A program made the translations under genes and the position numbers. Positions 2,843 through 63,445 of a DNA stretch of 64,000 nucleotides are shown here, piece after piece. The notes under the pieces are model-generated. The model had not been told where the DNA came from. It was given only the letters and a program-made list of their open reading frames with translations, and made no database searches. This stretch comes from Isurus oxyrinchus (lineage: Eukaryota), in contig JANJGN010000926.1 in NCBI GenBank assembly GCA_026770705.1, positions 1 to 64,000 on the forward strand. Reading direction: 5' to 3'. Positions within the stretch are counted from its first letter, which is position 1, and each line of letters starts with the position of its first letter.

Positions 2843-2935
2843 ATGCACCACAGAATCTCTCATTTACTTCGCTTGATATGATTAATGCTTCATCGATCAA
2901 TATAATTGAGGGGTTCATAACCATCACTGTGGAAT
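2843..2935 (+). pseudogene. Gene A C2-b copy 1, internally deleted in frame (93-nt mini-exon)
   Basis: Both splice sites retained; DAPQNLSFTSLDMINASSINIIEG joined to FITITVE, 189 nt shorter than the 282-nt copies. Confidence 0.85.
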
Positions 2936-3571
2936 GTGAGTTAATGCAAACTTCAACATCACACACACACACACACACACACACACATGCAGAAACACAC
3001 ACAATCTCAACTCATACAAGCACACACACACATGCACATACAGACACACATGTGCACACACACAAACACAAACACCCAGATCCTTATTGTACCGAAACAT
3101 GCACACACAAGCCAACACACACATACACACACAAAAACATGTGGGTTCCCTCTCCTCTCCCAGTGCTGCACTGGAGTCTCGATATCAGCTCTGAATCTGT
3201 GTTGAAGGAAGGTAAACTCCAGATCATCAAGACCCTGAACTGCATGGAGCAACCTCCTGAACAGTGAATTGTAGATTTACCTCTCAGTGTTCCATCAATC
3301 AAATACAATTCATTGCCTTTGAAGCCTTTGGGGACAGCCTGAGGATCTGTAAGGGAGTTTGCTGCATTCTAGATGGACACCTCCACTGGTGGGAGAATGT
3401 AACTGCAGTGTGACAGTTTACATAGGCAGTGCCCATTGTCAATGTGAAATAAGTTCTTATCCTGAGGGAAGGTACCTGGAAATGCATTCAGACATCAGAT
3501 ACAGAGACATGATGCATGGAGTCTTGCTGTGCACTATATTTGCTCATATTAAAATCATTCTATGTTTATAG

Positions 3572-3853
3572 ATGCACCACGGAATCTCTCAATTACTTCT
3601 CTTGGTGTGATTAACGCTTTATCGATCGATGTAATTGAGGGGAATTCTGCAGTGATAATCTGCTCTGTCGAGAGCTTCCCAGCTTCTAATCTGACGTGGT
3701 GACATCTTAATGTCCCAATGAACAGAACAAGTTCCAGCAATGAGCTGTGGTTGGTGATTCCTCACGTTACATCCAGGGACACTGGAGACTATCAGTGTGT
3801 GGCAGAGAATGAACATGGAGCAGTGGAGGGGTTCATAACCATCACTGTGGAAC
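3572..3853 (+). pseudogene. Gene A C2-b copy 2 with premature stop (TGA 3700-3702)
   Basis: 282 nt AG/GT exon; TGG TGA CAT where other copies read TGG CGA CAT. Confidence 0.9.
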
Positions 3854-3879
3854 GTGAGTTACTGCAAACTTCAACATCT

Positions 3880-3924
<45 letters not shown>

Positions 3925-4533
3925 ACACGTGCACACACATACTCATAAACATGCACACACATTCACTCATGCACAGAAATATACACAAAGAGACACTCAG
4001 ATATGCTCAAACACATACACACATGCACACACAGACACATGCGTGCATACTCACACAAACACTCTCACTTGTGCAGAAACACAAACACACACACAAACAC
4101 ACAAATGAGTTCCCTGTCCTCTCTCAGTGCTGCACTGGAGTCTCGGTGTCAGCTCCGATTCTGTGTTGAAGGAAGGTAAACTCCAGATCAACAAGACCCT
4201 GAATTGGATGGAGCAACCTCCTGAACAGAGAATTGTAGATTTACCCCTCAGTGCTCCATCGATCAAATACAATTCATTCCCGTAAATCCCTTGGCAAAAT
4301 ACTGAGGATGTGAAAGCTTCTTTCATTAAAAGTGGATAGCACCTCTACTGGTGGGAGAATGTAACTGCAGTTTGACTGTTTACATAGGCAGTGCCCATTA
4401 TAAATTTGACAGTGGAAGTTATATGGAGGGAAGGTACCCGGAATTGCATACAGACATCAGATACAGAGAGATGATGCATGGAGTCTTGCTGTAAATTGTG
4501 CTTGCTCACATTAAACACTTGATTTGTTTTTAG

Positions 4534-4815
4534 ATGCACCACAGAATCTCTCATTTACCTCTCTTGATATGATTAACGCTTCATGGATCAATATAATTGC
4601 GGGGAATTCTGCAGTGATAATCTGCTCTGTCGAGAGCTTCCCAGCTTCTAACCTGACGTGGCGACATCTTAATGTCCCAATGAACAGAACCAGTTCCAAC
4701 AATGAGCTGTGGTTGGTGATTCCTCACGTTACATCCACGGACACTGGAGACTATCAGTGTGTGGCAGAGAATGAACATGGAGCAGTGGAGGGATTCATAA
4801 CCATCACTGTGGAAC
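4534..4815 (+). CDS. Gene A C2-b copy 3 Ig exon, intact
   Basis: 282 nt AG/GT, phase 1-1; CSVESFPASNLTW...DTGDYQCVAENEHG. Confidence 0.9.
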
Positions 4816-5304
4816 GTGAGTTAACACAAACTTCAACATTACTCTCACATACACACACACACACACACACATACACACACACACAGACACATGCACACAA
4901 ACAAGCATTCATGTGCAATCCCACATGTGCACAGGTGTGTACACCTGCATGCTCACACACACAGAAGGAAACATACACAGAATCACACGTGTGCTTGCTC
5001 ACACACACACAGACATGTGTGAGTTGTCTGTTCTCCCTGTGCTGCACTGGAGTGTTGCTCCAGATTCTGCTCTGAAACACTGACGACATCAGCTGAACAA
5101 GACCCTGTATGGGACGAGCAGCCTCCTGCACAGAGAATTGTAGGTTTATCACTCAATACCCCATTATTCTAAAGCAATTCCTCCACTGTCAAATCCCTGT
5201 GAACATCCTGATGATGTGAAAGACATTTTCTTTTCTTCTAGCCCAACAGTGTCTCCTCTGGTGGAAGGCTGTAATTACAGCGTGACAGTTTACATATCCA
5301 CACG

Positions 5305-5645
5305 CAGCAAGAGCTGAGCAACACTCAGCTTGGACTGAGAAATGACAATTAATGCATCACAAGTACCAGGCAGTGATCATGTCCAACAAGAGAGAATCTA
5401 ACCATCTCCCCTTGATGTTCAGTGAGTTTACTATCACTGAATCCCCCACAATCAACATCCTGGGGGATGTTAACCAAACAACTAACTGGACCGGCCATAA
5501 ATACTGTGGCTATAGGAGCCGGTCAGAGGCTGGGAATTCTGTGGGGGTGAAAAACTAACCACCACCTCCTCAAGGGCAATTAGGGATGGGTAATAAATGC
5601 TGGTCTAGATAGATACATCCACTTCCCATGAATGTACAAAAAGAA
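5305..5645 (+). mobile_element. LINE 3' fragment, internally deleted
   Basis: Matches parts of the LINE at 20340-20570 and its tail at 21045-21125. Confidence 0.7.
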
Positions 5646-5798
5646 AAACGCTGGCAGTGACCATTATAAAAGTTGACATAGAAACTTAAAACAGGAAAGA
5701 ACCTTGAAATGCACATAGACACCAAATAGAGAGAGATGTATCATGGAGTCTTGCTGTGCACTGTGTTTGCTCACAATGAAACCTTTATTTGTATTTAG

Positions 5799-6080
5799 AT
5801 GCACCACGGAACCCATCAATTACTTCTCTTGATATGATTAATGCTTCATGGATCAATATAATTGAGGGGAATTCTGCAGTGATAATCTGCTCTGTCGAGA
5901 GCTTCCCAGCTTCTAACCTGATGTGGCGACATCTTAATGTCCCAATGAACAGAACAAGTTCCAACAATGAGCTGTGGTTGGTGATTCCTCACGTTACATC
6001 CAGGGCCACTGGAGACTATCAGTGTGTGGCAGAGAATGAACATGGAGCAGTGGAGGGGTTCATAACCATCACTGTGGAAC
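5799..6080 (+). CDS. Gene A C2-b copy 4 Ig exon, intact
   Basis: 282 nt AG/GT, open frame, both Ig Cys and Trp present. Confidence 0.9.
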
Positions 6081-6869
6081 GTGAGTTACTGCAAACNNNN
6101 NNNNNNNNNNNNNNNNNNNNNNNNNNNNNNNNNNNNNNNNNNNNNNNNNNNNNNNNNNNNNNNNNNNNNNNNNNNNNNNNNNNNNNNNNNNNNNNNNNNN
6201 NNNNNNNNNNNNNNNNNNNNNNNNTGCAAACACATACAGAGGAATATATATACACAACTCACACACACACACACATTCATGCCCACACATAGACACACAC
6301 ATGCACATTCACTCACTCTTGGACAGACGTAGACACACAGACATGCGTGCCTGCGCACACACAGATACATGTGTGCATACACACACAAGCACACTCACTT
6401 GTGCAGAAACACAAACACACACACACTCACACACATACACAAATGTGAGTTCCCTCTCCTCTCTCAGGGTGCACTGGAGTCTCGGTATCAGCTCTGATTC
6501 TGTGTTGAAGGAAGGTAAACTCCAGATCAACAAGACCCTGAATTGGATGAGCAACCTCCTGAACAGAGAATTGTAGATTTACCCCTCAGTGCTCCATCAA
6601 TCAAACATTGCCTGTCAAGCCCTTGGCGAAATCCTGAGGATATGAAAGCAAGCTTCTTTCATTCTAGATGGACAACACCTCTACTGGTGGGAGAATGCAA
6701 TTGCAGTGTGACAGTTTACATAGGCAGTGTCCATTAAAAATGTGGCATAAGACCTTATCCTGAGGGAAGTTACCTGGAAATGCATAAAGACATCAGATAC
6801 AGAGACATGATGCATGGAGTCTTGCTGTGCACTATGTTTGCTCACGTTAAAATCTTTATATGTTTTTAG

Positions 6870-6969
6870 ATGCACCACGGAATCTCTCAATCAATTCTCT
6901 TGATATGATTAACGCTTCATGGATCAATATAATTGAGGGGAATTCTGCAGTGATAATCTGCTCTGTCGA
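6870..6969 (+). pseudogene. Gene A C2-b copy 5, 5' fragment
   Basis: DAPRNLSINSLDMINASWINIIEGNSAVIICSV then jumps into intron sequence homologous to about 4880-5360; no donor. Confidence 0.85.
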
Positions 6970-7542
6970 CATAGACACACAGACAGGTGCACGTAAACAT
7001 GCGTTCATATTTAATCGCATGTCTGCACAGGTGTGTACACCTGCATGCTCACACACAGAAGGAAACATACACAGAATCACACGTGTGTTTGCTCACACAA
7101 ACACAGACATGTGTGAGTTGTCTGTTCTCCCTGTGCTGCACTGGAGTGTTGCTCCAGATTCTGCTCTGAAACACTGACGACATCAGCTGAACAAGACCCT
7201 GTATTGGACGAGCAGCCCCCTGCACAGAGAATTGTAGATTTATCACTCAATACCCCATTATTCTAAAGCAATTCCTCCACTGTCAAATCCCTGTGAACAT
7301 CCTGATGATGTGATAGACATTTTCTTTTCTTCTAGCCCGACAGTGTCTCCTCTGGTGGAAGGCTGTAATTACAGCGTGACAGTTTACATATCCACATGCA
7401 GCAAGAGCTGAACAACACTCAGCTTGGGCTGAGAAATGACAATTAATGTTCATGCCGCACAAGTACCAGGGAGAGCTGTTCCTTGTATTGACCCTTGGGA
7501 TTGTTTATCTCAACCTGATAGGGCAGAGGGGGCCCAGGTTGT

Positions 7543-7609
7543 GACTATCAGAGTGTGGCAGAGAATGAACATGGAGCAGTGGAGGGGTTCATAACCATCA
7601 CTGTGGAAT
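7543..7609 (+). pseudogene. Gene A C2-b copy 6, 3' fragment
   Basis: [22 protein letters not shown] plus GTGAGT donor; Cys codon changed to Ser; 5' part missing. Confidence 0.8.
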
Positions 7610-8427
7610 GTGAGTGTGGAGATACATTTGTTTGTTTGTTGTCTCCGTGGTCTCCGTGGAGCCATTGGGATCGTGTTGTTTTTAATCCAGTTTTCTTCAA
7701 TCCTCGCTCAGTCCACGTTATCCACACACCCAATTTTTCCTCTCCCTTTCTGTTTTTGCTCTCAGTTTCTCCTTCATTGGTTGTGAGGACAAGGCTGTCA
7801 GGTCTTCGTTTCCAATCTCCATACTTGACGACCTTTCGCTCTCTAACTGTCCTGAACAACCCTTTTAATTGCTGAACTTCTCATTCTTTAATTGATAAAT
7901 ATTATATATAAACGTTACATGGATTACTTTGAAATGCAACACTTGTATTCATAAATAGCTTAGAAATGACTAAAATTCAACAGTCAATGAAGCATTATCG
8001 AAGTAAGCTCACTGCTGTAAAGGAGGAAACACAGGTACTGATTTGTACACAGCAAGATCCCACAAACCACCGTGTCTTAATGACCTGATAGTCGATTATT
8101 TCAATGAGGTTGGTTGTTTAATGTGTAGAGAGACTACATACCCTTTAGGGAGGGAAGCATGTCTCGATGTGGATGTGACTCCAGTCTCAGACACCAACAT
8201 GGTTAACTCTTACCTGCCCTCTGAACTGGTCTCCCAGTTTGGGACAAACCAGTGGTTCAGGAACAAGACCCCCCACCACCTTCTCAAGGGGAAACTAGGG
8301 ATGGACAATAAATGTCAGCATTGCCCGAGAATGAGTATTTAAACATTGAGTGAGTGTATCGCTTCTCGAGATACATCGGAGCATCATTGTAAACCTGTAG
8401 TGCAGTAATTAATGGCTGTTTTTACAG

Positions 8428-8524
8428 GTAGAGACTCCAGTAAATGGACAGTAGGATTGTTCACGGCTGGGATCATGTTGAGTGTGTTCCTGGCTGGAAT
8501 CTTCATCTTCATCTGTGTGAGAAA
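8428..8524 (+). CDS. Gene A transmembrane exon (uncharged, inhibitory type)
   Basis: tttttacag/GTAAGT; RDSSKWTVGLFTAGIMLSVFLAGIFIFICVRK; phase 1-2. Confidence 0.9.
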
Positions 8525-8649
8525 GTAAGTCTGAAGATTTAACTTGATTTTAATATAAACATTTGCTTAGGACTAATTGGACAGTTTTTACAAAGGGCCA
8601 GCACAGGCACGATGGGCTGAGTGGCTTCCTCCTGAGCTGTGAGATTTAA

Positions 8650-9115
8650 AATTCTTTCATCGAATGTGACTGTCACTGGTGAGGCCGCTATTAAATTGCC
8701 TATCCCTAATTGCCCCTTGAGAAGGTGGTGGTGGGCTGCCTTCTTGACCCGCTGCAGTCCATGTGGTGTAGGTACACCCACAGTGCTGTTAGAGAGGGAC
8801 TTCCAGGATTTTAACCCAACGACAGTGAAGGAACGGTGATATATTTCCAAGTCAGGATGGTGAGTGACTTGGAGGGGAACTTCCAGGTGGTGGTGTTCCC
8901 ATGTGTCTGCTGCCCTTGTCCTTCTAGATGGTAGAGGTCGTGGGTTTGGAAGGTGCTGTTGAAGGAGCCTTGCTGAGTTGCTGCAGTGCATCTTGTAGAT
9001 GGTACACACACTGCTGCCACTGTGTGTTCGTGGTGGAGGGAGTGAATGTTTAATGTGGTGGATGGGGTGTGGATCAATCGAGCTGCTTTGTCCTGGATGG
9101 TGTCAAGCTTCTTGA
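8650..9115 (-). mobile_element. LINE 3' fragment
   Basis: Reverse complement of about 20670-21120; duplicated at 37140-37600. Confidence 0.85.
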
Positions 9116-9247
9116 TTCTGTGCTTTGTGCAGAAGTGGTTTAAAGAGACAGTCCAGTCGTTGGTGTAAGGTTACAGTGGGCTCTGTGTCTGTGCTGCACT
9201 GACTCTCTGCTATATGATAACCACAGTGTGATATTGTGTTATTGCAG

Positions 9248-9329
9248 GAGAAAGACAGCGATGGAGGAGAGAGTTTCAGGGACCAGAGACATTGCATTGA
9301 CCCCCAGTCCACTCTCTGTGAAGCACCAG
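9248..9329 (+). CDS. Gene A cytoplasmic exon 1
   Basis: ttgcag/GTACAG; 82 nt phase 2-0; RKTAMEERVSGTRDIALTPSPLSVKHQ; conserved at 15540 and 37728. Confidence 0.85.
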
Positions 9330-9464
9330 GTACAGGAGCTGTTTACACTCACTCCAAAGCTTCAATCTCAGTGTGTAGACAACACATGTCCCAGATTCCC
9401 AGCCCAGTTACCGACTGATTTGTACCTGTGGAGTCAGCAATGGTTCAGTATCATGCTGTCTCTC

Positions 9465-10195
9465 TGTTATGACACAGCAACTGTTAAAGGCTGTTGTTTA
9501 AAATCCCAGAGGGAAACTTTAAACAACTGTCATAACCTATATTTCCCAGTGGAATGTTTGAGATGCAGCTCTAAATTCAGGAATAAGACCACCAGTTCTC
9601 GAGATGGTTTTATATCAGTCTGCATGAGACATTTATTAATTTACACAAGTTAAACATATGCACATGGCTACAAACTAGTATTATCATAACTTTAACAAAT
9701 TCCCAAACTAATCTCCTCTAAGACAACACATAGACTTTAAGCAGATTCCAGCGAAGCATTTTCACCTCACAAATTCCAAATGAGGTTCCTTTCACTTTGG
9801 TTCCTTTGCAGACAGGTGTAGGCTTACAGCTGCTTTGATGTTACAAGCCTCTGCTCTGCACACACAAAACTGCTCAAGTTATACCCAGCACTGCTCTTTG
9901 AATGTAAATTCTCATTGAATCATCAGGACCTTTGAACTCCACCCTTCATCGTATCAATTTTATTAGTAATATAAACATTGATTCGTTTAAGATTTCACTC
10001 TCAGACATTGAATGCTCTGTTTAAAGATGCAGATTACCCCTTTACCTCTTTGTTTACATCTCAAAACTACTATACATCAAATACCCAGACTGGCTGGCTT
10101 TAATCCAATTAAAACACTCACAGACACACCCACAGACTAAACCCCTGTTTAAAAAGACAATTTCCACTTACATTACATACATTAATAGATTAATA
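9465..10195. mobile_element. Solo-LTR-like element (approximate ends)
   Basis: Begins TGTTATGACAC, similar along its length to the insert at 13423-14253; duplicated at 37945-38700. Confidence 0.55.
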
Positions 10196-10329
10196 ACACC
10201 CTATCTCTATCCCTTTCTCTCTTTCTCTTCCCTCTCATCCTCTCTCTGATTACAAGGTTCTTGTTAATGAGCCTCACGTCAGGCACCTGAGTGCAGAATC
10301 CAAGCCGGCACTCACCAGAGCCATTCCCG

Positions 10330-10475
10330 AGGGAGTGCGAGACTGACAGAGGGTCAGTCCTGAGGGAGTGCTGCGCTGTCGGGGGTCAGTACTGAGGGAG
10401 TCCGAGACTGACAGAGGGTCAGTACTGAGGGAGTGCTGCGCTGTCGGGGGTCAGTACTGAAGGAGTGCTGCCCTG
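10330..10475 (+). repeat. 33-bp minisatellite, about 4 units
   Basis: GAGGGAGTGCTGCGCTGTCGGGGGTCAGTACT-type units. Confidence 0.85.
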
Positions 10476-10618
10476 CCATAGGTGGTTTCTTTTATATGAT
10501 ATGAGAGAGAGAGTTAAACCAACTGAGACACGACTGACACACGAGGCTGCACAATAATTTAACCCTATCAGTGCCTGTAATTGATGTGAGGATGTCTTCT
10601 GTTTCCATTTCTCTGTAG

Positions 10619-10867
10619 GGTAAACAGAACGTGCTGATTACTGAGCCCCGGAACACAACCAGAGACACAACTAGCGAGGGGGAGACCCCAGCTCCCCGGG
10701 ATCTCTCTGAAGGTCCAGTGAGAGGCAATGCTGGACATGGAATCCCTGACAATCCCAACGACCTTCTCTACGCCAATCCCCAAGTCTTCAGGGTGCCCAG
10801 TGGTGATGGGTCTGTCCACAGGGAAGAGGAGACGGAATACGCACAGATCAGATTCAAGCGAAACTGA
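10619..10867 (+). CDS. Gene A terminal cytoplasmic exon: degenerate ITIM (LLYANP) plus ITSM (TEYAQI)
   Basis: ctctgtag acceptor, phase 0, open to TGA; two tyrosine motifs spaced as in CD33-related Siglecs. Confidence 0.9.
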   Translation, partial: GKQNVLITEPRNTTRDTTSEGETPAPRDLSEGPVRGNAGHGIPDNPNDLLYANPQVFRVPSGDGSVHREEETEYAQIRFKRN

Positions 10868-15621: not shown

Positions 15622-15834
15622 GTACAGGAGCTGTTTACACTCACACCAAAGCTTCAACCTCAGTGTGTAGACAACACGTATACCAGATTCTCAGCTGGGT
15701 TACACACAGATATCGCCCTGTGAAGTCAGCAATGGCGCAGTGGTCAGCACTGTCTCTCGCTCCCAGGCTCTGTCTCCCTCCATCACTCGCTCTTTGACCT
15801 TAAACATGAACACAATAATGACGAGGCACCTGAT

Positions 15835-18440
15835 GTCAGTAGTGAGGGAGTGCTGCACTGTCAGAGGGTCAGTAGTGAGGGAGTGCTGCACTGTCGAAAG
15901 GTCAGTACTGAGGGAGTGCTGCACTTTCGGAGGGTCATTACTGAGGGTGTGTTGCACTGTCAGAGGGTCAGTACTGAGGGAGTGCTGCACTGTCAGAGGG
16001 TCAGTATTGAGGGAGTGCTGCACTGTCAGAGGGTCAGTACTGAGGGAGTACTGCACTGTCAGCGGGTCAGTAGTGAGGGAGTGCTGCACTGTCAGATGAT
16101 CAGTATTGAGGGAGTGCTGCACTGTCAGAGGGTCAGTACTGAGGGAGTGCTGCACTGTCAGAGGGTCAGTAGTGAGGGAGTGCTGCACTGTCAGAGGGTC
16201 AGTAGTGAGGGAGTGCTGCACTGTCGGAGGGTCAGTACTGAGGGAGTGCTGCATTGTCAGAGGGTCAGTATTGAGGGAGTGCTGCACTGTCAGAGGGTCA
16301 GTATTGTGGGAGTCCAGCACTGTTGGAGGGTCAGTACTGAGGGAGTGCTGCACTGTCAGAGGGTCAGTATTGAGGGAGTGCTGCACTGTCAGAGGGTCAG
16401 TACTGAGGGAGTGCTGCACTGTCAGAAGGTCAGTACTGAGGGAGTGCTGCACTGTCAGAGGGTCAGTACGGAGGGAGTGCTGCACTGTCAGAGGGTCAGT
16501 ACTGAGGGAGTACTGCACTGTCAGAGGGTCAGTAGTGAGGGAGTGCTGCACTGTCAGAGGGTCAGTATTGAGGGAGTGCTGCACTGTTGGAGGGTCAGTA
16601 CTGAGGGAGTGTTGCACTGTCAGAGTGTCAGTACTGAGGGAGTGTTGCACTGTCAGAGGGTCAGTATTGAGGGAGTGCTGCACTGTCAGAGGGTCAGTAC
16701 TGAGGGAATGCTGCACTGTTGGAGGGTCAGTATTGAGGGAGTGCTGCACTGTCAGAGGGTCAGTATTGAGGGAGTGCTGCACTGTCGGAGGGTCAGTACT
16801 GAGGGAGTGCTGCACTGTCAGAGGGTCAGTACTGAGGGAGTGCTGCACTGTCAGAGGTTCAGTAGTGAGGGAGTGCTGCACTGTCAGAGAGTCAGTAGTG
16901 AGGGAGTGCTGCACTGTCGGAGGGTCAGTACTGAGGGAGTGCTGCACTGTCAGAGGGTCAGTATTGAGGGAGTGCTGCACTGTCAGAGGGTCAGTATTGA
17001 GGGAGTGCAGCACTGTTGGAGGGTCAGTACTGAGGGAGTGCTGCACTGTCAGAGGGTCAGTATTGAGGTAGTGCTGCACTGTCAGAGGGTCAGTACTGAG
17101 GGAATGCTGCACTGTCAGAAGTTCAGTACTGAGGGAGTGCTGCACTGTCAGAGGGTCAGTACTGAGGGAGTGCTGCACTGTCAGAGGGTCAGTAGTGAGG
17201 GAGTGCTGCACTGTCGGAGGGTCAGTATTGAGGGAGTGCTGCACTGTCAGAGGGTCAGTAGTGAGGGAGTGCTGCACTGTCGGAGGGTCAGTACTGAGGG
17301 AGTGCTGCACTGTCAGAGGGTCAGTATTGAGGGAGTGCTGCACTGTCAGAGGGTCAGTATTGAGGGAGTGCAGCACTGTTGGAGGGTCAGTACTGAGGGA
17401 GTGCTGCACTGTCAGAGGGTCAGTATTGAGGGAGTGCTGCACTGTCAGAGGGTCAGTACTGAGGGAGTGCTGCACTGTCAGAGGGTCAGTACGGAGGGAG
17501 TGCTGCACTGTCAGAGGGTCAGTACTGAGGGAGTACTGCACTGTCAGCGGGTCAGTAGTGAGGGAGTGCTGCACTGTCAGAGGATCAGTATTGAGGGAGT
17601 GCTGCACTGTTGGAGGGTCAGTACTGAGGGAGTGTTGCACTGTCAGAGTGTCAGTACTGAGGGAGTGTTGCACTGTCAGAGGGTCAGTATTGAGGGAGTG
17701 CTGCACTGTCAGAGGGTCAGTATTCCGGGAGTGCTGCACTGTTGGAGGGTCAGTATTGAGGTAGTGCTGCACTATCAGAGGGTCAGTATTGAGGGAGTGC
17801 TGCACTGTCGGAGGGTCAGTACTGAGGGAGTGCTGCACTGTCAGAGGGTCAGTACTGAGGGAGTGCTGCACTGTCAGAAGTTCAGTAGTGAGGGAGTGCT
17901 GCACTGTCAGAGGGTCAGTAGTGAGGGAGTGCTGCACTGTCGGAGGGTCAGTACTGAGGGAGTGCTGCACTGTCAGAGGGTCAGTATTGAGGGAGTGCAG
18001 CACTGTTGGAGGTTCAGTACTGAGGGAGTGCTGCACTGTCAGAGGGTCAGTATTGAGGGAGTGCTGCACTGTCAGAGGGTCAGTACTGAGGGAGTGCTGC
18101 ACTGTCAGAAGGTCAGTAATGAGGGAGTGCTGCACTGTCAGAGGGTCAGTACTGAGGGAGTGCTGCACTGTCAGAGGGTCAGTACGGAGGGAGTGCTGCA
18201 CTGTCAGAGGGTCAGTACTGAGGGAGTGCTGCACTGTTGGAGGGTCAGTATTGAGGGAGTGCTGCACTGTCAGAGGGTCAGTATTGAGGGAGAGCTGCAC
18301 TGTCGGAGGGTCAGTACTGAGGGAGTGCTGCACTGTCAGAGGGTCAGTACTGAGGGAGTGCTGCACTGTCGGAGGGTCAGTATTGAGGGAGTGATGCACT
18401 GTCAGAGGGTCAGTACTGAGGGAGTGCTGCACTGTTGGAG
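15835..18440 (+). repeat. 33-bp minisatellite (GAGGGAGTGCTGCACTGTCAGAGGGTCAGTACT), about 79 units, intronic
   Basis: Direct inspection; 11-aa periodicity in the spurious 890/910-aa ORFs. Confidence 0.97.
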
Positions 18441-18625
18441 TGCGATAGAGATTAAATTATTAAGAGAGAGAGAAAGCGAGAGAGAAAGAGAGACAGAGAA
18501 AGAGAGTGAAAAAAAGGCTTAAACCCACTGAGACACGACTGACACTAATGAGGCTGCACAATAATTTAACCCTATCAGTGCCAGTAAATGATGTGAGGAT
18601 GTCTTCTGTTTCCATTTCTCTGTAG

Positions 18626-47603: not shown

Positions 47604-50600
47604 AAAGTTGCAGTTGTAGGTGTCGATCTCAGATGTAACATTGCAATGTGTGGATCTTGCTTGGCCTGTCTAGATTTGAGAATTAGGGATTTCACTGTGT
47701 GAATCATTCATTCAGCGAGGCTGTTAGATCTGGGGTAATGAGGAGAAGAAGTAGTATGATTGATATTCCAGATTATCTGTAATCATGTCCCTAGGCTCAC
47801 CAAATAAACTGAAAATAGTGCTTAGAGTGTGTGCACCAGTTGTGCTTGGTGTGTTGTGCTATTTTTGAATAATGGGATATCTGGTAAAGCTGTCGACGAT
47901 GATGATGAAGTCAGTGACATGGAAATGAAAGGATTCAGACCTGATTTTGGACTAAGAATGGGCAGGAATTTCCTGTGGAATCAGTGGTTCTTTGTGCTGA
48001 CTTGGCTCATCCTCTTGACAAGCCTCGTACTTCCCTACAACGACTTCAAGGTCATTCTTCATACCCGGCCAGGGAGTATATCTCTTGTGAGTCTCCTTGT
48101 CTGATCTGTGCCCATGTGTGAGGGATGAAGTTGTTGAAGAATATAGGATCACAAAGGCTCCGGTATGATGCCCTGCCTGCCATTAAAAATGGTTCCCTGG
48201 GAGATGCCTCACTTATCCCGATGAGGTCAAGCTGAATCAGGCCACCCTTCCAATGATATTTCCCCAGTTCCTGTAGAATTTTTCACTGTTCCCTTTTGTA
48301 GCTGCTGTCATTTCTGTTGTGCTAAATATACTGGATCAATTGACAGACTTGCATTCTCCTGCAGGTGTAATGTTGCAGCTCCCTTGAAACTGCCAATATT
48401 GTTGAAACTTTCTGCATATTTCAATGTTATGTCAATGAACTGAGGTGATGGGGTAGTTTCTGAGGTTGACCCATGTGAGGTCTGACAGATTCCATGGATT
48501 GTCACTAGTGTGAGGTCACCGCATGCCGGTAGACTTGCAATTGCTCAGCCTTTATTCTGCACGATGTAGAACATCTGTGACACCCAGGAAGATTGATTGT
48601 ACTTGCACTCTAGGACTATGGATTCTGCACATGGAGTTGGTGAAGTGTTGTACACAGCAGTAGGTTTCCCCATGGACTTCCATGTCCTTGGATATATGTC
48701 TTTGAAAATTTGCTGGGGTGGGCTGGGGGAGGGGAATGTTGGCACTTGTCCCTGTATCAATCTTGGCCAATAAAGGGGAGGTAGAAACTTTCTCAGGGCA
48801 GATAATTGGAATCTTGGCCAATAGTGCGGGTGAAGTGACGGCATCTGTTCTCCATGAGATTGATGGTGTAATAGGTGTGAAATTGTTCAACAGTTGCACA
48901 ATACGTTGAGCACAAGTGTTGCAAAAACTCTAAGCCGGGGTTTTCCGGCCCAGTCATGGTGGGACCTGCCGTGGGAGATTGGGACAAATATAAATCCATT
49001 GGCTTTCGGCCGGACCGGACAATCCTGGCAGTGGGTGGGGCCAGAAAATCTAACACCTATGGGACATTTTCAGTTTCTTTGATGTGCCCAGAGATATCAT
49101 GAAGGACAACAATCCACAATTTATTGGCAAGCCACGTCAGGATATGTGTGAGAGGTGGAATATCGATCACCGCACCTCGTCTCGTCATGCACATCATCGC
49201 CATTTCCTGGCTTGTCAGTCACCACATGTATATGTTCCTGATGGGATAGCGGATGGTCATTCTTATTGCTTGAAGGTTCCCCGTTGTGTAGGGTCTGTTT
49301 GGATCAGCGCACGGCTCTTTGTAGCTGCATCAGCCTTTGCTCTAGTGCCCTGCCGCTGTCAATGGCCCTTTCTGCTACAAGCCTTGCAGGATTGGTGGAA
49401 AGCTGGGGATTTCCTTGGTGCCTGCCACACGTCTCACTAGGTTTGGATGTGCTAGTGAGTGTGTCAACAATTGATGTTGTACTGAGGACCTGTAAGCTTC
49501 GTTGACCTGCGAGGATTACTTCGTATTTATGTCCATCCTTGAGTAGCTCTTCAATGCTATAGGTTTTGGTCTTATCTAGCAGATCTTTCTGGAAGGCTTC
49601 CATGGGAGTGGATGCGATCGCCAACTCAACAACTCTGTCTGCAGGCTCTGTGTTTGAAATCACAGTGCGTACCCTTTTCTCTACATCGGCTGATGAAGTG
49701 GTCTATGGATTGTGTCGGCTGATGAAATGACATAAACTCTAGTTGATGAATTTGGAGTTTCACCTGATTCTGAAACTGTCTTCCAATACCGTCCGTGTCT
49801 ATTGGGGATCCTTTCGCTCTTCTGCTGTTAATCCTGATGTCTTCAGCCTGTGTAGACCTTCATTCCCAATCGCGAGGTGAATTTTTATGGGTGGTTCGTC
49901 TGGTTCAGTCACACCAGAATCAGGAAACCAGAGTTCTGTACGCTGTTTAAACATTCTGAATTCAGATAGTCAGCTACATCCCAGTTCAAACTGGGGAATT
50001 TTGTGGACATTCTGACAATATTCCTTTGACCTTCCTTCTCCTACAGGACCTGGGATGAGTGTCGCTTTAGCCCCTTTCACGTGCTTTTCCGAAGCTCCGC
50101 CCACGAAGATGGGTTGCGGCAGGAACACACCACGGAGTAATGGAGTCTTTGTTTTTTATTCAATTTGCTGTTCAGCAATCTCGAAGCCGCCCGTTATAAT
50201 CACTAACTTCTCTGGGCTGATTTTTATAATGGTTTTTGTGTGTTTGACTCTCCCTCGCTCACTATCGATCCAGCCCACACCCTGGTCACTCGCCTTCCCT
50301 GACTGAGCTAACCCGCTGCTGGTCCTGGCGATACACACTATCCCACTCACTGACCTACAGGCCGTGTGCTGTAATCCCACCACGAGGGATCCGTCTGCTC
50401 CCCAGCTCTTTACTTAAGCTCTTTCCCGTCACTGTGTCTTCAAAGGTTTCCTGAGAGTCAGTACACTGCGATTTCAACCCTCTCTGATGCTGTGTCTCTG
50501 TTGTGGTCTGACCAAAGCGTCGAGGGTCATCTCATGTCATGTAGCTCGATCTCAGGCTGTTCACCATGTCATACCTGTACTGAATCTTGCTGCCAGAATG

Positions 50601-50811
50601 TTTGGCCACCGCTGATCACCATGTTGTGTTTTTATAATGATATAAAGGCACCAGCCACTGATACGGAATTGGGTAAATACATTGTGGGTTCAGTTATTTA
50701 GAATGGGGACATGAGAACAGATGTACAAGGATAGAAAGCTGGGAGACACCTGCAGCCAAACTGTGTGAGCTGTGTTCTGCTCACAGGCCAAAGTGAAACT
50801 TGGACTGGATG

Positions 50812-52070
50812 GTGTTATCATCCCAGCTGATGTTACTACTGGGCAAGTCAGATCCCAGGGTGGAACTCAGCTTGATAGGTCCTAACTTTTATTTTTTATT
50901 TAGGAATGTGGAGTGCTGCTACTGAACAGAGTCACAGGAATCATCTGATGACCTTCTAACAAAAGAATAAAACATTTGTTAAACTAGGAAAGACAAACTA
51001 TATTACATTACTCCTTCACCCAGACCTATACATTTACAGATTCATAAGTAGAATACAAGTTACAATAACTATCTTATACTCTCATGTTCACACTAAGTAC
51101 ACAGTTCATGCAAACCAATAGACGACCTGGTGTCAGGGACACCACATTCTGTAACCAAGTGATAGACCCCAATTGGAACAAATGCTATGGGTTTCAGCTC
51201 AACTGACTCCAGACACTTGTTTCACCATGAGGCAACTGGTCTTACAAAACTGTATCTTTCACATGAGAGTTTCCAATCTCTACTCGTCAAGTGCTCTCTT
51301 TGGAATCTTCTCTAACATGACACTTTCACTCAGAGACCTTCCACAAGGGTCCACTTCCACGATTTCAAACTCTCCTTCCCATGTTCCTGCCCCCTGGATC
51401 ACCACATGCATTCAGCCTTCCTTCTACGCGTTGTCTTTCCAATGCTCAGTCATGCCAATGGAACACCATGGCTTCACATGGTCATAGTAAGAAGACATCA
51501 ACATTTGGCTGTCTCCTATGATCTTCTGGCTTCTAATAAGCCTTTTTTGCTTTAGGTCTGTGTCCTTTTGCTTTTTCTCTTTTAGCTTGGATCCCTCCTC
51601 TGCTCCTCAATCTTATCTCGACTTAACAGGACCTTTTTCAGATTCCTGATCTTCTTTGGAGTAGAAGGTCTTCTTGGCTCTTTCTCCTGTTCCACTCGAT
51701 AGTTTTGGCTTCTTCTTTACTTTGGGACTGACTATCTGTCCCGCTCCTTTGCTGCTTCTCCTGGCAACTCCTTTCAACCAAACTGAAAGCACATTTCTGT
51801 TTTTCTCTGTCTCTATGGGTCCGTCCCTCTGGATCACTGTTGCTTAGCAATAGCACAGTTTCTTACACATTGTGTTTGTTTTGACTTCCCTTCAAGAGAC
51901 ATCAAACCCCATTAGATTGCTAAACGAAAATGAAACCAAAACTGAAGTTTCCCCCTTTCTTAACACACAAATACAGAAATCAAACTAAACTTGAACATAA
52001 ACATATGCCTTATCCCTAACACACACAAATACACATAGAACTTACTTAAGCTATACCCAATTCCTAAAAT
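50812..52070. mobile_element. LTR-like element nested in the Gypsy LTR region (approximate)
   Basis: Begins TGTTATCA...; resembles the other LTR-like inserts in layout; boundaries inferred. Confidence 0.45.
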
Positions 52071-52131
52071 CACATGACACACTTCCCCTCGAGTGATGTC
52101 ATGCTGCTGTCCCTGAAAGGCATATTACAAC

Positions 52132-53058
52132 AGTGTTATCACTTGGCAGGTGATGTGTGCCAGGCAGACCAAGTCCCTGAGAGAAAGATGGTCACATGAT
52201 CATAATGATTTTGCAATTTGTATTTATTATGAGATGTGTGCACTGAATTCAGAAGCAATAATTACACAAAGACCTTTAGCGATTTGAAAATTAAATTAAA
52301 ATACTTGCTCTCAAAATAAATGATTTGAAGCACATACATAACTCTACAATTACCACTATAATAATTCTTAAAATTCTGAATTAAACTGACTCCCAGTTAC
52401 ACTCCCTTTAAGGCAACGGTCCAAAAATAGACTTTATATTTAAAACAAACCCAGCAAGTTAACACAATATAAAAGCAATACCCTGCACAGAGGAATTCCA
52501 AGTGGCTTTTCCCCAACTTCAGTTCTGTTGGATAGCAGGCTTGTGCACAAATGCTAGAGGTTTCATTAAGACTATATCACACACTCGTGTTAGATCTTAC
52601 ATGGCATTCTGACACATAGCCTTTCATTCTCCCTGATAGATATATATTTCTCTCTTTGTAACATGAAAATTCTATTGTTCCATATGTTTTTGAAACTGTA
52701 TCTTCCACATAACAAACTCTTTCGTGGTGCCCATATTGCCAGGAGCCTTTGAGAAAAATAAACACATTCCTTAGTCTTGCTTATCTGGCTAGTTGTAAAC
52801 AAGCTAAGATTCCTTTGAAATCCAACAACCCCTTCATTGATAGAAAAATGCAAATTCTCTTCATACCTTCCATGCTAAGCAGCATCCATGTTTCCTCAAT
52901 AGCATGTCAAGCACCTAGCTCCTTTTGATCATTTTAAACTTCCAATCTAATTAACTCCAAATGTACTTAAATCACATGCAGACCCATCACGCGTACCCCC
53001 ATAAACCTACTTCACAATATACTATAAAATATTATGAAAATTATTATACTTACATCAC
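52132..53058. mobile_element. Solo-LTR-like element
   Basis: TGTTATCAC...CATCACA termini; reverse-complement relative of 19165-20058. Confidence 0.6.
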
Positions 53059-53462
53059 AATAGGAACCACTGCCTTAGACACTGAGGATCTAGGACAGCT
53101 AGGCCAATTCATGATTCATGATGGTGATAATGGGGGAATTCTGAAGGCTCCTAATCCATTGTCCTACGTTGTAAATCAGCAGTGAACTCACTTCAATTAG
53201 TGTGTCTTGTAGACACTGTGTTGGGTGGCAGACTGACTTCACTAAATAGGTACCTGAGGGTCATGAGCCAATTTAGAATGAATTGGTCCACTCCTGTGTC
53301 CGGAATTCTCTTCAATCTGTTGTGAAACCTTGGGGCATTCATTGTGTGACCTGTGGATTATCCAGACTGCAGCCTGTGTGCCCCAGTGATGGAGGGGGTG
53401 GATATTGAGTCTAGTGGATTGAGAAAACATTCAGAGTTAAATATTGATATTTCTCTCCCTAG

Positions 53463-53837
53463 TTGGACTATCACAAGTGTGGAAAGGTGACACTCCAGGA
53501 GAGGTGACAGCGCAGGAAGGTTCGTGTGTACAGATTCCATGTAATTACAGTTATCCATCATATTTAGTAGCGAGATCACCAGTCGGAATCTGGTATATGA
53601 GAAGGAATTGGGAAAAATGGAATGAACGGTCTATAGCCTTTCACTCCAAGGATCATAATCGCGAGTTACCACAGTTCCACCATCGGACCCGGCTGTCTGG
53701 AGACCTGAAAGATGGCGACTGTTCCCTGATTATAAACAACATCAGACGGGAAGATGCAGGATATTATTTATTCAGCCTAGAATTTGACAACAGGAATAGA
53801 TACAACGACCGTCCTGAAACCCAGCTTCACGTTTCTG
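53463..53837 (+). CDS. Gene E V-set exon 1, intact frame, essential Arg replaced by Ser
   Basis: ccctag/GTAAGT, 375 nt; CVQIPC and GDCSLII kept; DAGYYLFSLE (AGC 53774-53776) versus DAGPYFFRIE. Confidence 0.92.
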
Positions 53838-57241: not shown

Positions 57242-57610
57242 TTGGACTGTCACAAGAGTGGAAAGGTGACACTCCACGAGAGGTGACAGCTCAGGAAGGT
57301 TCGTGTGTACAGATTCCATGTCATTACAGTTATCCATCGTGTCTGGAAAACCAACCGCGAGGTGGACTCTGGTTTAATAATGAGAAACAGATTCCCTGGG
57401 CTCCCATTGCCTTTCACTCCAAGGATCACAGTCACGAGTTACCACGGTTCCGCCATCGGACCCGGCTGTCTGGAGACCTGAAAGATGGCGACTGTTCCCT
57501 GATTATAAACAACATCAGACGGGAAGATGCAGGACCTTATTTTTTCAGAATAGAATTTGACAATGGTCCGAGACATAACTATTACCCTGTAACCCGGCTT
57601 CACGTTTCTG
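57242..57610 (+). CDS. Gene E V-set exon 2, intact, essential Arg present
   Basis: ccccag/GTAAGT, 369 nt; EWKG, CVQIPC, GDCSLII, YFFRIE. Confidence 0.93.
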
Positions 57611-59540: not shown

Positions 59541-59909
59541 TTGGACTGTCACAAGAGTGGAAAGGTGACACTCCACGAGAGGTGACAGCTCAGGAAGGTT
59601 CCTGTGTACAGATTCCATGTCATTACAGTTATCCATCGTGTCTGGAAAACCAACCGCGAGGTGGAGTCTGGTTTAATAATGAGAAACAGATTCCCTGGGC
59701 TCCCATTGCCTTTCACTCCAAGGATCACAGTCACGAGTTACCACGGTTCCACCATCGGACCTGGCTGTCTGGAGACCTGAAAGATGGCGACTGTTCCCTG
59801 ATTATAAACAACATCAGACGGGAAGATGCAGGACCTTATTTTTTCAGAATAGAATTTGACAATGGTCCGAGACATAACTATTACCCTGTAACCCGGCTTC
59901 ACGTTTCTG
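59541..59909 (+). CDS. Gene E V-set exon 3, intact, essential Arg present
   Basis: Differs from V exon 2 by three residues (L/V, R/H, R/W). Confidence 0.93.
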
Positions 59910-60376
59910 GTAAGTGCTGTGTTATAATTACTCAACAATTCACATCCAACACTCAATGGGAAATAACACAAACTGTGATGTTTACATATTAACACAAAAC
60001 ACAGGTTATTATAACACACTGTCTGATTCTCAATAACCTGATGATAGCTTCCAGTTCAGTCCTAAAGCAACCTCTAATACTTACTTTAATATCAATGATT
60101 AAATGTGTTGACTGTGTCTATCAATGTTATCAGTTTATCCACTCCCATCAATCTCTCAAATCCTGTCTTGAAGTCTGACATATCGACAGAAGTAAGATTT
60201 ACATTTCTACAGCGCCTTTCACCACCCTAGAGTTCCCACCCTAAACCTCTCCCTCTCCCTCTTCCTCTCCCTATCTCTCTCTCTCTCGCTGTGTCTCTCT
60301 GTCTCTTTCTCTCTGTCTTTCCATAACACCGACCTCTTCTGGCCAGCTGTCACTAATATCTCCACATGTGTCACAG

Positions 60377-60664
60377 ATAAACCCACGATATTCCCTGCTG
60401 AAATTATTGCAGGAAAGCGTGTGGATGTAAGCTGCACCTTCAACACAACGTGCAATGGAACAGCAGCATCTGTCTTAACCTGGGACACTCCCACTGACGT
60501 ACCTGGATCAGTCTCAAACACTGTAACTCAGCATGGTGTCACTCTGACCTATACTTCTGTTCTGACCCTGACCCCATCACTCAAACACCACGGACACACT
60601 CTCAGCTGCAGAGTGAGATATCCATCTGTTTCATCGGAGCGGACCCTCATACTAACTGTGCAAG
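60377..60664 (+). CDS. Gene E C2-a exon; native acceptor deleted, in-frame cryptic CAG acceptor at 60374-60376
   Basis: DKPTIFPAE...TLILTVQ open, donor GTAAGA intact. Confidence 0.78.
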
Positions 60665-60987
60665 GTAAGAACGGACACCCTTCATTCTACATCAGCACTC
60701 CCTCAGCGCTGACCCTCTGACAGTGCAGCCCGTTCTCAGTGTCCACATTCTCATGCCTCTCAAAGTGCTTCACAGTCGATAGAAGTTAACTGATCTTTAT
60801 TTGATTGTTGCTGAATGAAGAGACAAGCTGTCTAAACTTTACATCTCACACACATTATTTTCCATGGCAACACCTCCTCCAATCAGAGACCACTTGCTGA
60901 TTAACCAGCACTCTCTTCCCTTTAAATATAAATTGTTGTTCACTTTCTGTTGGTAAACCTGCAATCTGCCTTGTTGAGTCCGGTCCT

Positions 60988-61139
60988 GACATCTGAATAT
61001 CACAATGAACAGAACAAGTTCCAACAATGAGCTGTGGTTGGTGATTCCTCACATTACATCCAGGGACACTGGAGACTATCAGTGTGCTCAGAGAATGAAC
61101 ATGGAGCAGTGGAGGGGTTCATAACCATCACTGTGGAAC
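60988..61139 (+). pseudogene. Gene E C2-b 3' remnant with 1-bp deletion; 5' half missing
   Basis: MNRTSSNNELWLVIPHITSRDTGDYQC then TGTGCTCAGAG versus TGTGTGGCAGAG; no acceptor. Confidence 0.85.
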
Positions 61140-62253
61140 GTTAGTTAAGGCAAACTTCAACATCTCTCTCAGATTGAAACACTACAAAAACACACATAAA
61201 TATCCAGCCTTAAATAGACACCTGCAGACAAACAATCCCACATCTATGAGCACACACAAAGGCACACTCACAAACAAACACACTAGCACATACTCCCCTG
61301 TGGATTACCTGACCTCCCTCAGTGCTGCACCGGAGAGTTGACCTGGATTCTGGGATTTGTGTTCCCTTTCATATTTATGGAAGAATATGGAAATTGCAAA
61401 GTCTATTACAGACACTCAGATGCACAGAGATACTCACAGATACTCTCTGCCTCTCCAACTCTCTATCCTACTTTAAGAACCTTCCTGAAATCTAACTCTT
61501 TGACCAGTCACCTGTCCCAATTCCTCCTTACGTGATTTTGTGTGAAATTTTGTTTGAGTATCTGAGAGTAAGAGGGAAGTGGAGAGGTTTAGGAAGGGAA
61601 TTCCTGTTGCTGAAAAGCTTACATCAAGTTCTCAGCTTTCCAGTGCCCATTTTTCACATGATGTCCATGTTCATAATGGGGATTGCCTATGTAAACGTCA
61701 CGCTGTAGTTACACTCTCCCACCAGTGGTAGCACGGTAACACTTAACCCTTGCATCTCCAAGCTTTTCAAGCAATTTCACTTCCTAATTTCCTACTATTC
61801 ACCTCAACCATTCCCTGTGGGAGCGAGTTCCATATTCTCCCCTCTCTCTGGGTAAAGATTGGAACTGTTTATTAAGCGGGGGGTGTAAGTCCGTGGGGGA
61901 GTCCATCTCGATCCTGCCCGATTCGCACACACGTCCGAGATGGATTTTCACCCGGCACTAAACGTTTCCAGAATTTTCTACAGCACAATCCTGTACACAG
62001 CAATAGAGAGAAACATTGGACAGGGAGTCCAACAGCACAATGATCCATTCTCACCAATGTTCCACGCTAAGGAGAAAGTTCCGATTGTCCACTCTTAGAG
62101 TGTTTACAATGAAAACATTCATTCCACATTGAATCCCAGTGGATGGGTCAATATTACAGCAAATGTTGCAGTGATATGAAGTTTGATTGTTCAGCCAGAG
62201 TGAGAGATTGAAAGCGGAGAGTCAGTGATGATTTCTTTCTGTGTGTTCTCTAG

Positions 62254-62393
62254 ACAGTGGAGGAGAGATTCTGCACGTGATCCTGATCCTGGGAATACGA
62301 GCTGTGATATTCCTTGTGGCTGTGGTTATCACTATCACTGGAGTCTGTGTCTGGGAGAGACAAACAGTGAAAGGAAGTCGACAGACTGTTTGA
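62254..62393 (+). CDS. Gene E activating-type transmembrane/short-tail exon with intramembrane Arg
   Basis: Pyrimidine tract plus TAG at 62251-62253; phase-1 reading DSGGEILHVILILGIRAVIFLVAVVITITGVCVWERQTVKGSRQTV*; not shown in the ORF track in this frame. Confidence 0.8.
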
Positions 62394-62776
62394 AGCTTTG
62401 TACAGCAACAATCTGGTCAGTCAGTGCGGACAAATAACGTGTGATGTTGTGTTAAGTTGTAATGAAACTGGTCAGTGTCCTGGTTATAATCATCTCCGTA
62501 TCATCGAGTCATTCCAGCAATGGAGGAGGACATTTGGCCCATTGAGTCTATGCTGTCTCTCTGTAAAGCAATCCACTCAGTCCCATCCCCTGCTCTATCC
62601 CCGTATCCCTGCAAATTTATTTCCAATTTCCGTCCAATTTCCTTTTGAAATTGTTCATCGAATAGGAATGAACAGAAATGTGACGTTGCTAAACTCTGTT
62701 CTCTGATTGGAATGTGCTTTCTGAATGCTGCACCTTTTTCACGCTGCGATAGATTGTAAGAAGCATTTGGCTTATG

Positions 62777-62782: not shown

Positions 62783-63125
62783 ATTACATTGATTAACTCA
62801 AGTGATTAAAATGCTCAGCCTGTTCTGTAGATATTTAAAGATTAAAATTCTTGTTTTGCTGCAAAATACTTGGCTCAAAGACATAGCTTCCTGTTGTCAC
62901 GTTTTCCAATCAGATGAATTCCTCTGTCCATCTTTATAATAGAAATTTCCAATGTAAACATGTCACATTGTAACTGCACACACTTGCCAGTGGCTGGTGT
63001 GATACCAAAGCTGTCTTGCTGCAGAGAAACAGCGAGAAATATTCCTGTTGTGTGCATGAACTTCATGTTAGCATGAGACACAGGCATCAGATGAAATTTT
63101 GTGCAATTTGTACAATGTTCTTTAG

Positions 63126-63445
63126 ACAGTGCAGCACTCCCTCAGATCAGACCCTCCGACAATGCAGCACTCCCTCAGTTCAAACCCTCTGACAGTGCAG
63201 CACTCCCTCAGTTCAGAACCTCCGACAGTGCAGCACTCCCTCAGTTCAGACCCTCTGACAGTGCAGCACTCTCTCAGTTCAGACCCTGTGACAGTGCAGC
63301 ACTCCCTCAGTTCAGACCCTCCGACAGTGCAGCACTTTCTCAGTTCAGACCCTGTGACAGTGCAGCACTCCCTCAGTTCAGACCCTCCGACAGTGCAGCA
63401 CTCCCTCAGTTCAGACCCTCCGACAGTGCAGCTCTCCCTCAGTTC
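63126..63445 (-). repeat. 33-bp minisatellite variant (GACAGTGCAGCACTCCCTCAGTTCAGACCCTCC), about 9-10 units
   Basis: Direct inspection. Confidence 0.92.

What the first reader, a model, noticed from the sequence alone, without database searches (positions are those of the whole stretch)
53463..53837. Arg-less V domain with changes concentrated on the ligand-binding face
V1 has an open frame but YFFRIE is YLFSLE. The B-C segment (YLVARSPV), C-C' loop (YMRRNWEKWNERS versus FNNEKQIPWAP) and G strand (RNRYNDRPETQ versus GPRHNYYPVTR) are heavily changed, while RTRLSGDLKDGDCSLIINNIRREDAG is nucleotide-identical to V(A) and V2. Established: loss of this Arg abolishes sialic-acid binding (as in human Siglec-12) and the C-C' loop sets specificity. 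Inference: diversifying selection toward a different, possibly pathogen-derived ligand rather than neutral decay.
Basis: partly seen in the sequence, partly recalled or inferred. Interest (0 to 1): 0.7.

Follow-up and report, generated by a model that had tools for sequence, protein, structure and literature searches.

The report
Shark Siglec heads repeatedly lose arginine
In a shark's large family of sugar-sensing immune receptors, the outermost domain has repeatedly lost the arginine normally used to grip sialic acid while the inner domains keep it, which likely frees the outer domain to recognise something else.

Summary
Observation confirmed. V1 (53463-53837) is an open Siglec V exon with Ser at the sialoadhesin Arg97 position.

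V1 is the outer domain of a Leader-V1-V2-V3-C2-TM(Arg) receptor in a shark cluster of at least 661 V exons. Its changed loops mark an older outer-domain class, shared with Arg-bearing paralogs and with white and basking shark proteins; one paralog differs from V1 by only two codons. V1 versus V2 shows no non-synonymous excess on the face (pN 0.45, pS 0.54), and the identical core fits gene conversion.

The real signal is family-wide. The Arg is replaced (Ser, Gly, Thr/Met; at least three origins) in 42 of 106 sampled outer exons against 1 of 138 inner ones. The Ser class has 21 open copies on both activating-type and inhibitory-type tails, and spliced Ser-form sequence occurs in contigs of one study.

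A new ligand is untested, and relaxed constraint remains a strong rival. This copy has also lost its normal C2 splice acceptor. Arg loss is known in primate Siglecs, and the scan noted a similar outer-domain loss on other DNA of this genome.

The parts
45828..45867 (+). Leader (signal peptide) exon of the V1 gene
   Evidence: spliced joint 45867 to 53463 in runs X1, X2
53463..53837 (+). V1: outer-class Siglec V-set exon, open frame, Arg-less
   Evidence: model pLDDT 86.5, best fold match sialoadhesin TM 0.84
53558..53584 (+). B-C segment SYLVARSPV, an outer-class feature shared with Arg-bearing paralogs
53594..53632 (+). C strand end and C-C' loop YMRRNWEKWNERS, an outer-class feature
53684..53761 (+). 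78-nt framework block identical in V(A), V1, V2 and in 77 of 247 sampled V exons; likely homogenised by gene conversion
53774..53776 (+). Ser104 codon AGC at the canonical Siglec Arg position (AGA in most paralogs)
53801..53803 (+). Tyr113 on the G strand, aligned to sialoadhesin Trp106 (retained aromatic)
   Evidence: alignment
57242..57610 (+). V2: inner-class V exon with Arg
   Evidence: V1-to-V2 joint in runs X2, X3
59541..59909 (+). V3: inner-class V exon with Arg, a 2.3-kb tandem duplicate of V2
60377..60664 (+). C2-set exon; its normal acceptor is lost in this copy, and an in-frame AG lies at 60375-60376
60990..61138 (+). Remnant of a second C2 exon (5'-truncated, frameshifted), skipped in the RNA joint
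62254..62394 (+). Last exon: transmembrane segment with Arg (62298-62300) and a short tail without tyrosine; activating type by inference
   Evidence: joint 60664 to 62254 in 4 of 4 runs

Best explanation
V1 is the outermost domain of a tandem-V, Siglec-type shark receptor in which a single base change replaced the canonical arginine; the inner Arg-bearing V domains likely keep sialic-acid binding, so the outer domain is likely free to act as a variable head that recognises a ligand without sialic acid. Shown: the gene layout (Leader-V1-V2-V3-C2-TM with Arg); the two V classes; the loops as an older class feature; the one-base AGA-to-AGC step; repeated loss of the Arg in outer-class exons; amplification of the Ser form to 21 copies; its use on both tail types; and spliced Ser-form sequence. 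Inferred: that the Arg-TM form activates through an adaptor chain and the tyrosine-motif form inhibits, as in primate paired Siglecs; that gene conversion homogenises the framework and moves heads between tails; that Ser104 removes carboxylate binding; and that the head binds something else, most plausibly a microbial surface molecule, or at least escapes sialic-acid mimicry.
For: Class asymmetry: 42 of 106 outer exons against 1 of 138 inner exons lack Arg, and that one inner exon is broken (the sample is biased to V1-like exons and the copies are not independent). Genome-wide exact pattern: 572 Arg, 22 Ser, 8 Gly, 59 Thr/Met/Lys. Of 30 of those 59 that were read, 26 Thr/Met are all outer class and 4 Lys all inner class. 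The three codons AGC, GGA and ACG sit in different loop backgrounds, and one clade for the Arg-less exons is rejected (p-AU 0.0065, quick tree). Broken exons: 0 of 42 Arg-less outer exons against 22 of 202 others (Fisher p 0.018, copies not independent). Ser-class tails: 14 Arg-TM (6 read contiguously, 8 by position 7-18 kb downstream), 4 inhibitory-type TM, 3 none found. RNA-like contigs: GT..AG joints and a 106-nt Ser-codon contig with 0 differences in X1 and 1 in X2. Outer-class face pN/pS is 1.03 against 0.49 for the rest. With CpG codons removed, 8 of 11 top sites lie in the three face segments. Precedent: PMC6288428 (section 6 part 1 and passages read) reports Arg-less Siglec-5/14 in great apes and sialic-acid-independent binding of GBS beta protein.
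Against: No ligand is known and no binding was tested. Single-rate omega is not above 1 in any region (outer face 0.95, p 0.80; F-G 1.37, p 0.28). The M2a signal is as strong in the inner class (p 2e-6) and weakens with segment-specific trees (p 0.011 and 0.055), and recombination can inflate it. Within the Ser class the changes (7 non-synonymous, 3 synonymous outside one shared block) do not show purifying selection. Four Ser-class genes, this one included, have lost the normal C2 acceptor (4 of 106 C2 exons), and three of these show no TM exon. Two of 26 further Thr/Met exons carry stops. None of 18 outer-class domains from white and basking shark has Ser/Gly/Thr/Met, so the losses look recent and are not shown to be conserved. 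RNA evidence is from one sample, its kind is guessed, and it cannot be assigned to this copy.
Confidence: 0.5

Rival explanations
1. Relaxed constraint only. Inner V domains make the outer Arg redundant, so mutations there are tolerated and ride along with neutral duplications. V1 is a folded spacer without a ligand of its own.
For: Face omega near 1; no purifying signal in the Ser class; damaged genes within it; very young, near-identical copies (19 exons at 98% or more).
Against: The F-G segment of V1 differs from three RTD-type sisters by 5 non-synonymous and 0 synonymous changes (small numbers). The Arg-less exons are mostly open. Three separate Arg-less classes were amplified, to 21, 8 and 53 copies.
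Confidence: 0.3
2. V1 still binds sialylated or other anionic host glycans through a non-canonical site (retained aromatics, basic C-C' residues RR and K), so only affinity or specificity changed.
For: [quoted passage not shown]
Against: The Arg is described as essential in virtually all Siglecs (PMC13358205, passages), and natural loss abolishes binding in Siglec-XII and ape Siglec-5 (PMC6288428, passages).
Confidence: 0.12
3. One reading: a V1-specific burst of diversifying selection reshaped B-C, C-C' and G together with the Arg loss.
For: V1-V2 differences are concentrated in those segments.
Against: The same loops occur with Arg in paralogs and in other sharks; a sister exon differs by two codons; pN does not exceed pS on the face.
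Confidence: 0.04
4. The Ser class is a set of transcribed pseudogenes or assembly duplicates.
For: A lost C2 acceptor in this copy and 3 others; a stop in V2 of one copy; some contigs look like parallel haplotypes.
Against: Ten Ser copies lie on one 4.2-Mb contig, in both orientations and with different downstream exons. The window's exons join to an open frame of 526 residues if the in-frame AG is used. Spliced joints are seen.
Confidence: 0.04

Closest known systems
Primate Siglec-12 / human Siglec-XII
   Same: Two V-set domains; the N-terminal one has lost the essential Arg in humans (R122C) and no longer binds sialic acid (PMC6288428, passages).
   Different: A single gene that is heading to null alleles in humans. 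Here there are dozens of Arg-less copies of at least three origins, genes with up to seven V exons, Arg-bearing inner V domains, and both tail types.
Paired Siglec-5/14 and Siglec-11/16
   Same: Near-identical heads on inhibitory and activating tails, kept alike by gene conversion. Great-ape Siglec-5/14 lack the Arg, and human Siglec-5/14 bind a bacterial protein without sialic acid (PMC6288428 section 6 part 1; PMC5701461 passages).
   Different: One V domain and two genes per pair. Here there are tandem V domains in a cluster of at least 661 V exons. The adaptor and the ligand of the shark receptors are untested, and orthology to CD33-related Siglecs was not tested.
Sialoadhesin (Siglec-1) and MAG V-set domains
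   Same: Best sequence and fold matches (E 4e-14; TM 0.84-0.85). The three V-set cysteines and the Trp2/Trp106-type aromatics align.
   Different: About 30% identity; they keep the Arg and have one V domain.
Annotated shark 'Siglec-12/-13/CD33-like' proteins (white shark P0022, P0011, P0079; basking shark P0012)
   Same: The same outer-class loops and V-V-C2 layout. P0022 ends in the same Arg-TM tail, with 86% identity over its matched V1 part.
   Different: They keep Arg or Lys; none of the 18 outer-class domains seen has Ser, Gly, Thr or Met.

Membership tests
Siglec family (I-type lectins) | N-terminal V-set Ig domain of Siglec type | tested here: met
   Pfam V-set and Ig_CD22; top PDB sequence and fold hits are Siglecs
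Siglec family (I-type lectins) | Siglec cysteine pattern in the V domain (intra-sheet B-E pair plus a free N-terminal Cys; pattern recalled) | tested here: met
   C21, C26, C86 invariant in 30 of 30 aligned sequences; the bonds themselves were not tested
Siglec family (I-type lectins) | Essential F-strand Arg in V1 | tested here: not met
   Ser104
Siglec family (I-type lectins) | Essential Arg in some V domain of the same protein | tested here: met
   V2 and V3 carry YFFRIE
Siglec family (I-type lectins) | C2-set domain(s) and type I transmembrane segment | tested here: met
   C2 and TM exons with a spliced joint; this copy's normal C2 acceptor is lost
Siglec family (I-type lectins) | Binding of sialylated glycans | not testable with these tools
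   needs a binding assay
Paired activating/inhibitory receptors | Same head on a charged-TM short tail and on a tyrosine-motif tail | tested here: met
   Ser class: 14 Arg-TM and 4 inhibitory-type TM of 21
Paired activating/inhibitory receptors | Adaptor (DAP12/FcR-gamma) association and opposite signalling | not tested
   inferred from the TM Arg only
CD33-related Siglecs (orthology) | Common descent or synteny with the mammalian CD33-related cluster | not tested
   database names are automatic; closest structures are sialoadhesin and MAG
Positively selected ligand-binding surface | dN/dS above 1 specific to the V1 face | tested here: inconclusive
   V1-V2 not enriched; M0 not above 1; M2a significant in both classes and weak with segment trees

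The most novel reading that the evidence does not exclude
Sharks run a two-tier Siglec repertoire of hundreds of V exons. Conserved inner V domains read sialic acid, while exchangeable outer V domains repeatedly abandon it for non-self ligands and are shuffled onto both activating and inhibitory tails, forming a large germline pattern-recognition repertoire built from a self-glycan receptor.
Probability: 0.25. Interest if true: 0.75.

Novelty: new variant of a known kind. Interest (0 to 1): 0.5.

Why it matters
Loss of the Siglec Arg is known from a few primate genes, where decay and adaptation are hard to tell apart. This cluster offers many independent losses, an internal control (inner domains that keep the Arg), and a natural pair of exons that differ at the Arg codon and one other codon. 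That makes 'what does an Arg-less Siglec bind' directly testable. The shark tandem-V expansion did not turn up in four literature searches (a fifth, on fish Siglec expansion, also showed nothing relevant), but the library lacks most subscription papers.

Tried and rejected
- Site models: one search left the null model's p0 at its start value, so they were refitted. Only values are used.
- Exon extraction was off by one base; classes and broken counts come. The Arg codon read by position was unaffected.
- One search used a TM start one base off; corrected.
- The automatic class call failed for 25 of 31 rows, which were read by eye from the printed peptides.
- Sequencing runs: no RNA holder listed as on record; the RNA nature of X1-X4 rests on GT..AG joints. 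X14 and X5 showed no Ser-form piece, which is no evidence. Contig depths were not used to rank expression. No joint into 60377 appeared among the listed joints (21 were not shown).
- 'No TM exon, so secreted' was dropped once the Arg-TM exon was found.
- Rows dropped: 1 partial V hit of 248; 3 unclassified exons of 247; selection tests used only the 71 outer and 94 inner unique intact exons.
- The look-up of earlier findings by sequence returned nothing.
- No complex prediction was run. Supplements of the papers were not opened. PMC13324755 was seen only as a search listing.
- PMC8455134 and PMC13262535 (passages) mention Siglecs only in passing, and PMC13358205 has 0 occurrences of 'shark' or 'cartilaginous'.

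Full report
Observation. The finding's coordinates are exactly one exon, 53463-53837, with AG/GT ends. Read from 53465 it is an open V-set domain. Its best matches among solved structures are sialoadhesin, Siglec-5 and MAG. An AlphaFold model (pLDDT 86.5) matches sialoadhesin best (TM 0.84). The Ser of YLFSLE (AGC, 53774-53776) aligns with sialoadhesin Arg97. One detail was missed: V1 keeps a Tyr at the sialoadhesin Trp106 position, where V2 has His.

The gene. The window holds Leader 45828-45867, V1, V2 57242-57610, V3 59541-59909, C2 60377-60664, a broken second C2, and a last exon 62254-62394 coding a membrane segment with an Arg and a short tail without tyrosine. Contigs of four runs from one sample show GT..AG joints Leader-V1 (2 of 4 runs), V1-V2 (2 of 4) and C2-TM (4 of 4). 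A 106-nt contig spanning the Ser codon matches with 0 differences in X1 and 1 in X2. The runs are only guessed to be RNA, introns are covered too, the joint arms are short (19-29 letters for the V1 joints), and near-identical copies cannot be told apart. This copy has lost the normal C2 acceptor, as have 4 of 106 sampled C2 exons, all in Ser-class genes. An in-frame AG remains, and using it gives an open frame of 526 residues.

The family. G000 is a 4.98-Gb genome. All 74 homologs of the first protein search are shark or ray proteins, many with several V domains; the closest are from white and basking shark. An exact pattern that catches 224 of 247 sampled V exons finds 661 V exons genome-wide: 572 Arg, 22 Ser, 8 Gly, 46 Thr, 7 Met and 6 Lys (CGY codons not counted; some contigs may be parallel haplotypes). 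I read 247 exons from about 1.4 Mb chosen for likeness to V1 or V2, so that sample is biased. They fall into an outer class (106 exons; 92 followed by another V, 1 preceded by one), an inner class (138; 120 preceded by a V) and 3 unclassified.

The loops are class features older than the Arg loss. L023-L025, L028 and L030 carry them with YLFRTD, as does white shark P0022 from C-C' onward. White shark P0011 and basking shark P0012 share the LVARS and WYMRR segments, also with Arg. Exon C52:614102 differs from V1 only by H73D and S104R. Between V1 and V2 the face has pN 0.451 and pS 0.537, the rest 0.048 and 0.066, and the core 0 and 0. Silent sites are as diverged as replacement sites in the loops and homogenised outside them, which fits old loops inside a framework levelled by gene conversion (inference).

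Selection tests across the family. Pairwise pN/pS is 1.03 on the outer face, 0.49 on the outer rest, and 0.50 and 0.45 for the inner class. Tree-based single-rate omega is 0.95, 0.76, 0.78 and 0.67, none above 1. My own M1a/M2a implementation finds a class with omega 2-3 in both outer (p 5e-6) and inner (p 2e-6) sets. For the outer set it weakens with segment-specific trees (p 0.011 and 0.055) and without CpG codons (p 0.005); 8 of the 11 top sites of the latter lie in the face segments. Diversifying selection on outer faces is therefore possible but not shown, and it is not specific to V1.

What is really there. Non-conservative loss of the Arg is almost confined to outer domains: 42 of 106 (21 Ser, 13 Thr, 8 Gly) against 1 of 138, and that one is a broken exon. 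In the unbiased pattern hits, 26 Thr/Met exons read were all outer class and 4 Lys exons all inner class (30 of 59 read); one extra Ser hit is a broken inner exon. The codons differ (AGC, GGA, ACG/ATG). A tree without the Arg region needs 7 changes (4 forced by strongly supported branches) and rejects one Arg-less clade (p-AU 0.0065); conversion may add to that count.

State and tails of the Arg-less copies. None of the 42 has a broken exon, against 22 of 202 other exons, though 2 of the 26 later Thr/Met exons have stops. Ten of the 21 Ser copies lie on one contig. Tails: Ser class 14 Arg-TM (8 of them by position only), 4 inhibitory-type, 3 none found; Thr class 11 inhibitory-type and 2 Arg-TM of 13 checked; Gly class 8 of 8 inhibitory-type. 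In other species, 152 unique V domains gave 138 Arg, 11 Lys, 2 Tyr (distant domains) and 1 Ser (a stingray middle domain). None of 18 lamniform outer-class domains had Ser, Gly, Thr or Met, so the losses look recent.

Mechanism. The most likely reading (0.5) is that inner domains keep sialic-acid binding and the outer domain serves as a variable head that has dropped it. On an activating tail this would avoid firing on self glycans; on an inhibitory tail it would avoid sialic-acid mimicry, while other ligands are bound. These steps are inferred from primate paired Siglecs (PMC6288428, section 6 part 1 and passages; PMC5701461, passages). Relaxed constraint without a new ligand (0.3) explains most of the same data. 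Arg-independent glycan binding (0.12) has precedent (PMC12953582, abstract). That the C-C' loop sets specificity, and that a TM Arg or Lys couples to DAP12/FcR-gamma, are recalled and come from no call.

Known and new. By layout and fold the protein works like a paired Siglec. V1 itself fails the Arg criterion, V2 and V3 meet it, and binding was not testable here. Arg loss, tandem V domains and paired tails each have primate precedent. The scale, the tandem layout with an Arg-keeping inner class, and the repeated class-restricted loss did not appear in my searches. The scan's earlier notes on other DNA of this genome describe an outer-domain Arg loss, the Arg-TM exon, head shuffling and an extra inner-class cysteine. 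I saw them after reaching my reading and checked them in part; for example, Cys stands at the B-C position in 102 of 108 intact inner exons that follow a V and in 0 of 93 outer exons scored. Verdict: a real, new variant of a known kind; interest 0.5.

Noticed in passing
window 1098-10864: Gene A: V(A) has an in-frame TGA; several C2 exons, some broken; an inhibitory-type TM near 8430 and a tail with LLYANP and TEYAQI tyrosine motifs. It looks like a pseudogene of the inhibitory type.
   Followed up: partly
window 32503-39600: A gene copy with leader, C2, TM and tail whose V exon is almost wholly deleted at about 33232.
   Followed up: no
window 46800-52000: Decayed LTR-retroelement-like fragments in the Leader-V1 intron (the likeness is recalled, not searched); RNA-like contigs splice from the leader into 46843 and 50045.
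   Followed up: no
window 57242-57610 and other inner-class exons: An extra Cys in the B-C segment of inner V exons (102 of 108 that follow a V) is absent from outer exons; it could pair with the free Cys of the preceding V (also earlier finding e1-9575185).
   Followed up: partly
window 28873-28962; L171, L196, L128: A third TM exon type (WKAGLLGAGICLSVG...), seen 4 times in the fetched DNA.
   Followed up: no
G000:C52:1871387-1891000 and G000:C189:684800-705194: Ser-class genes with seven tandem V exons about 2.3 kb apart; V number varies from 2 to 7 among Ser-class genes.
   Followed up: partly
window 15724-18519, 25786-26600, 63125-63445: 33-bp minisatellite arrays that give long open frames on both strands.
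   Followed up: no
L182, L183, L197 and other Thr-class exons: Many Thr-class heads also change the G-strand YY to VS and the C strand Y to K, so that class departs further from the sialic-acid site than V1; it is the largest Arg-less class (53 Thr/Met hits).
   Followed up: partly
G000:C34:15163755: One Arg-type V pattern hit on a large contig away from the cluster contigs.
   Followed up: no
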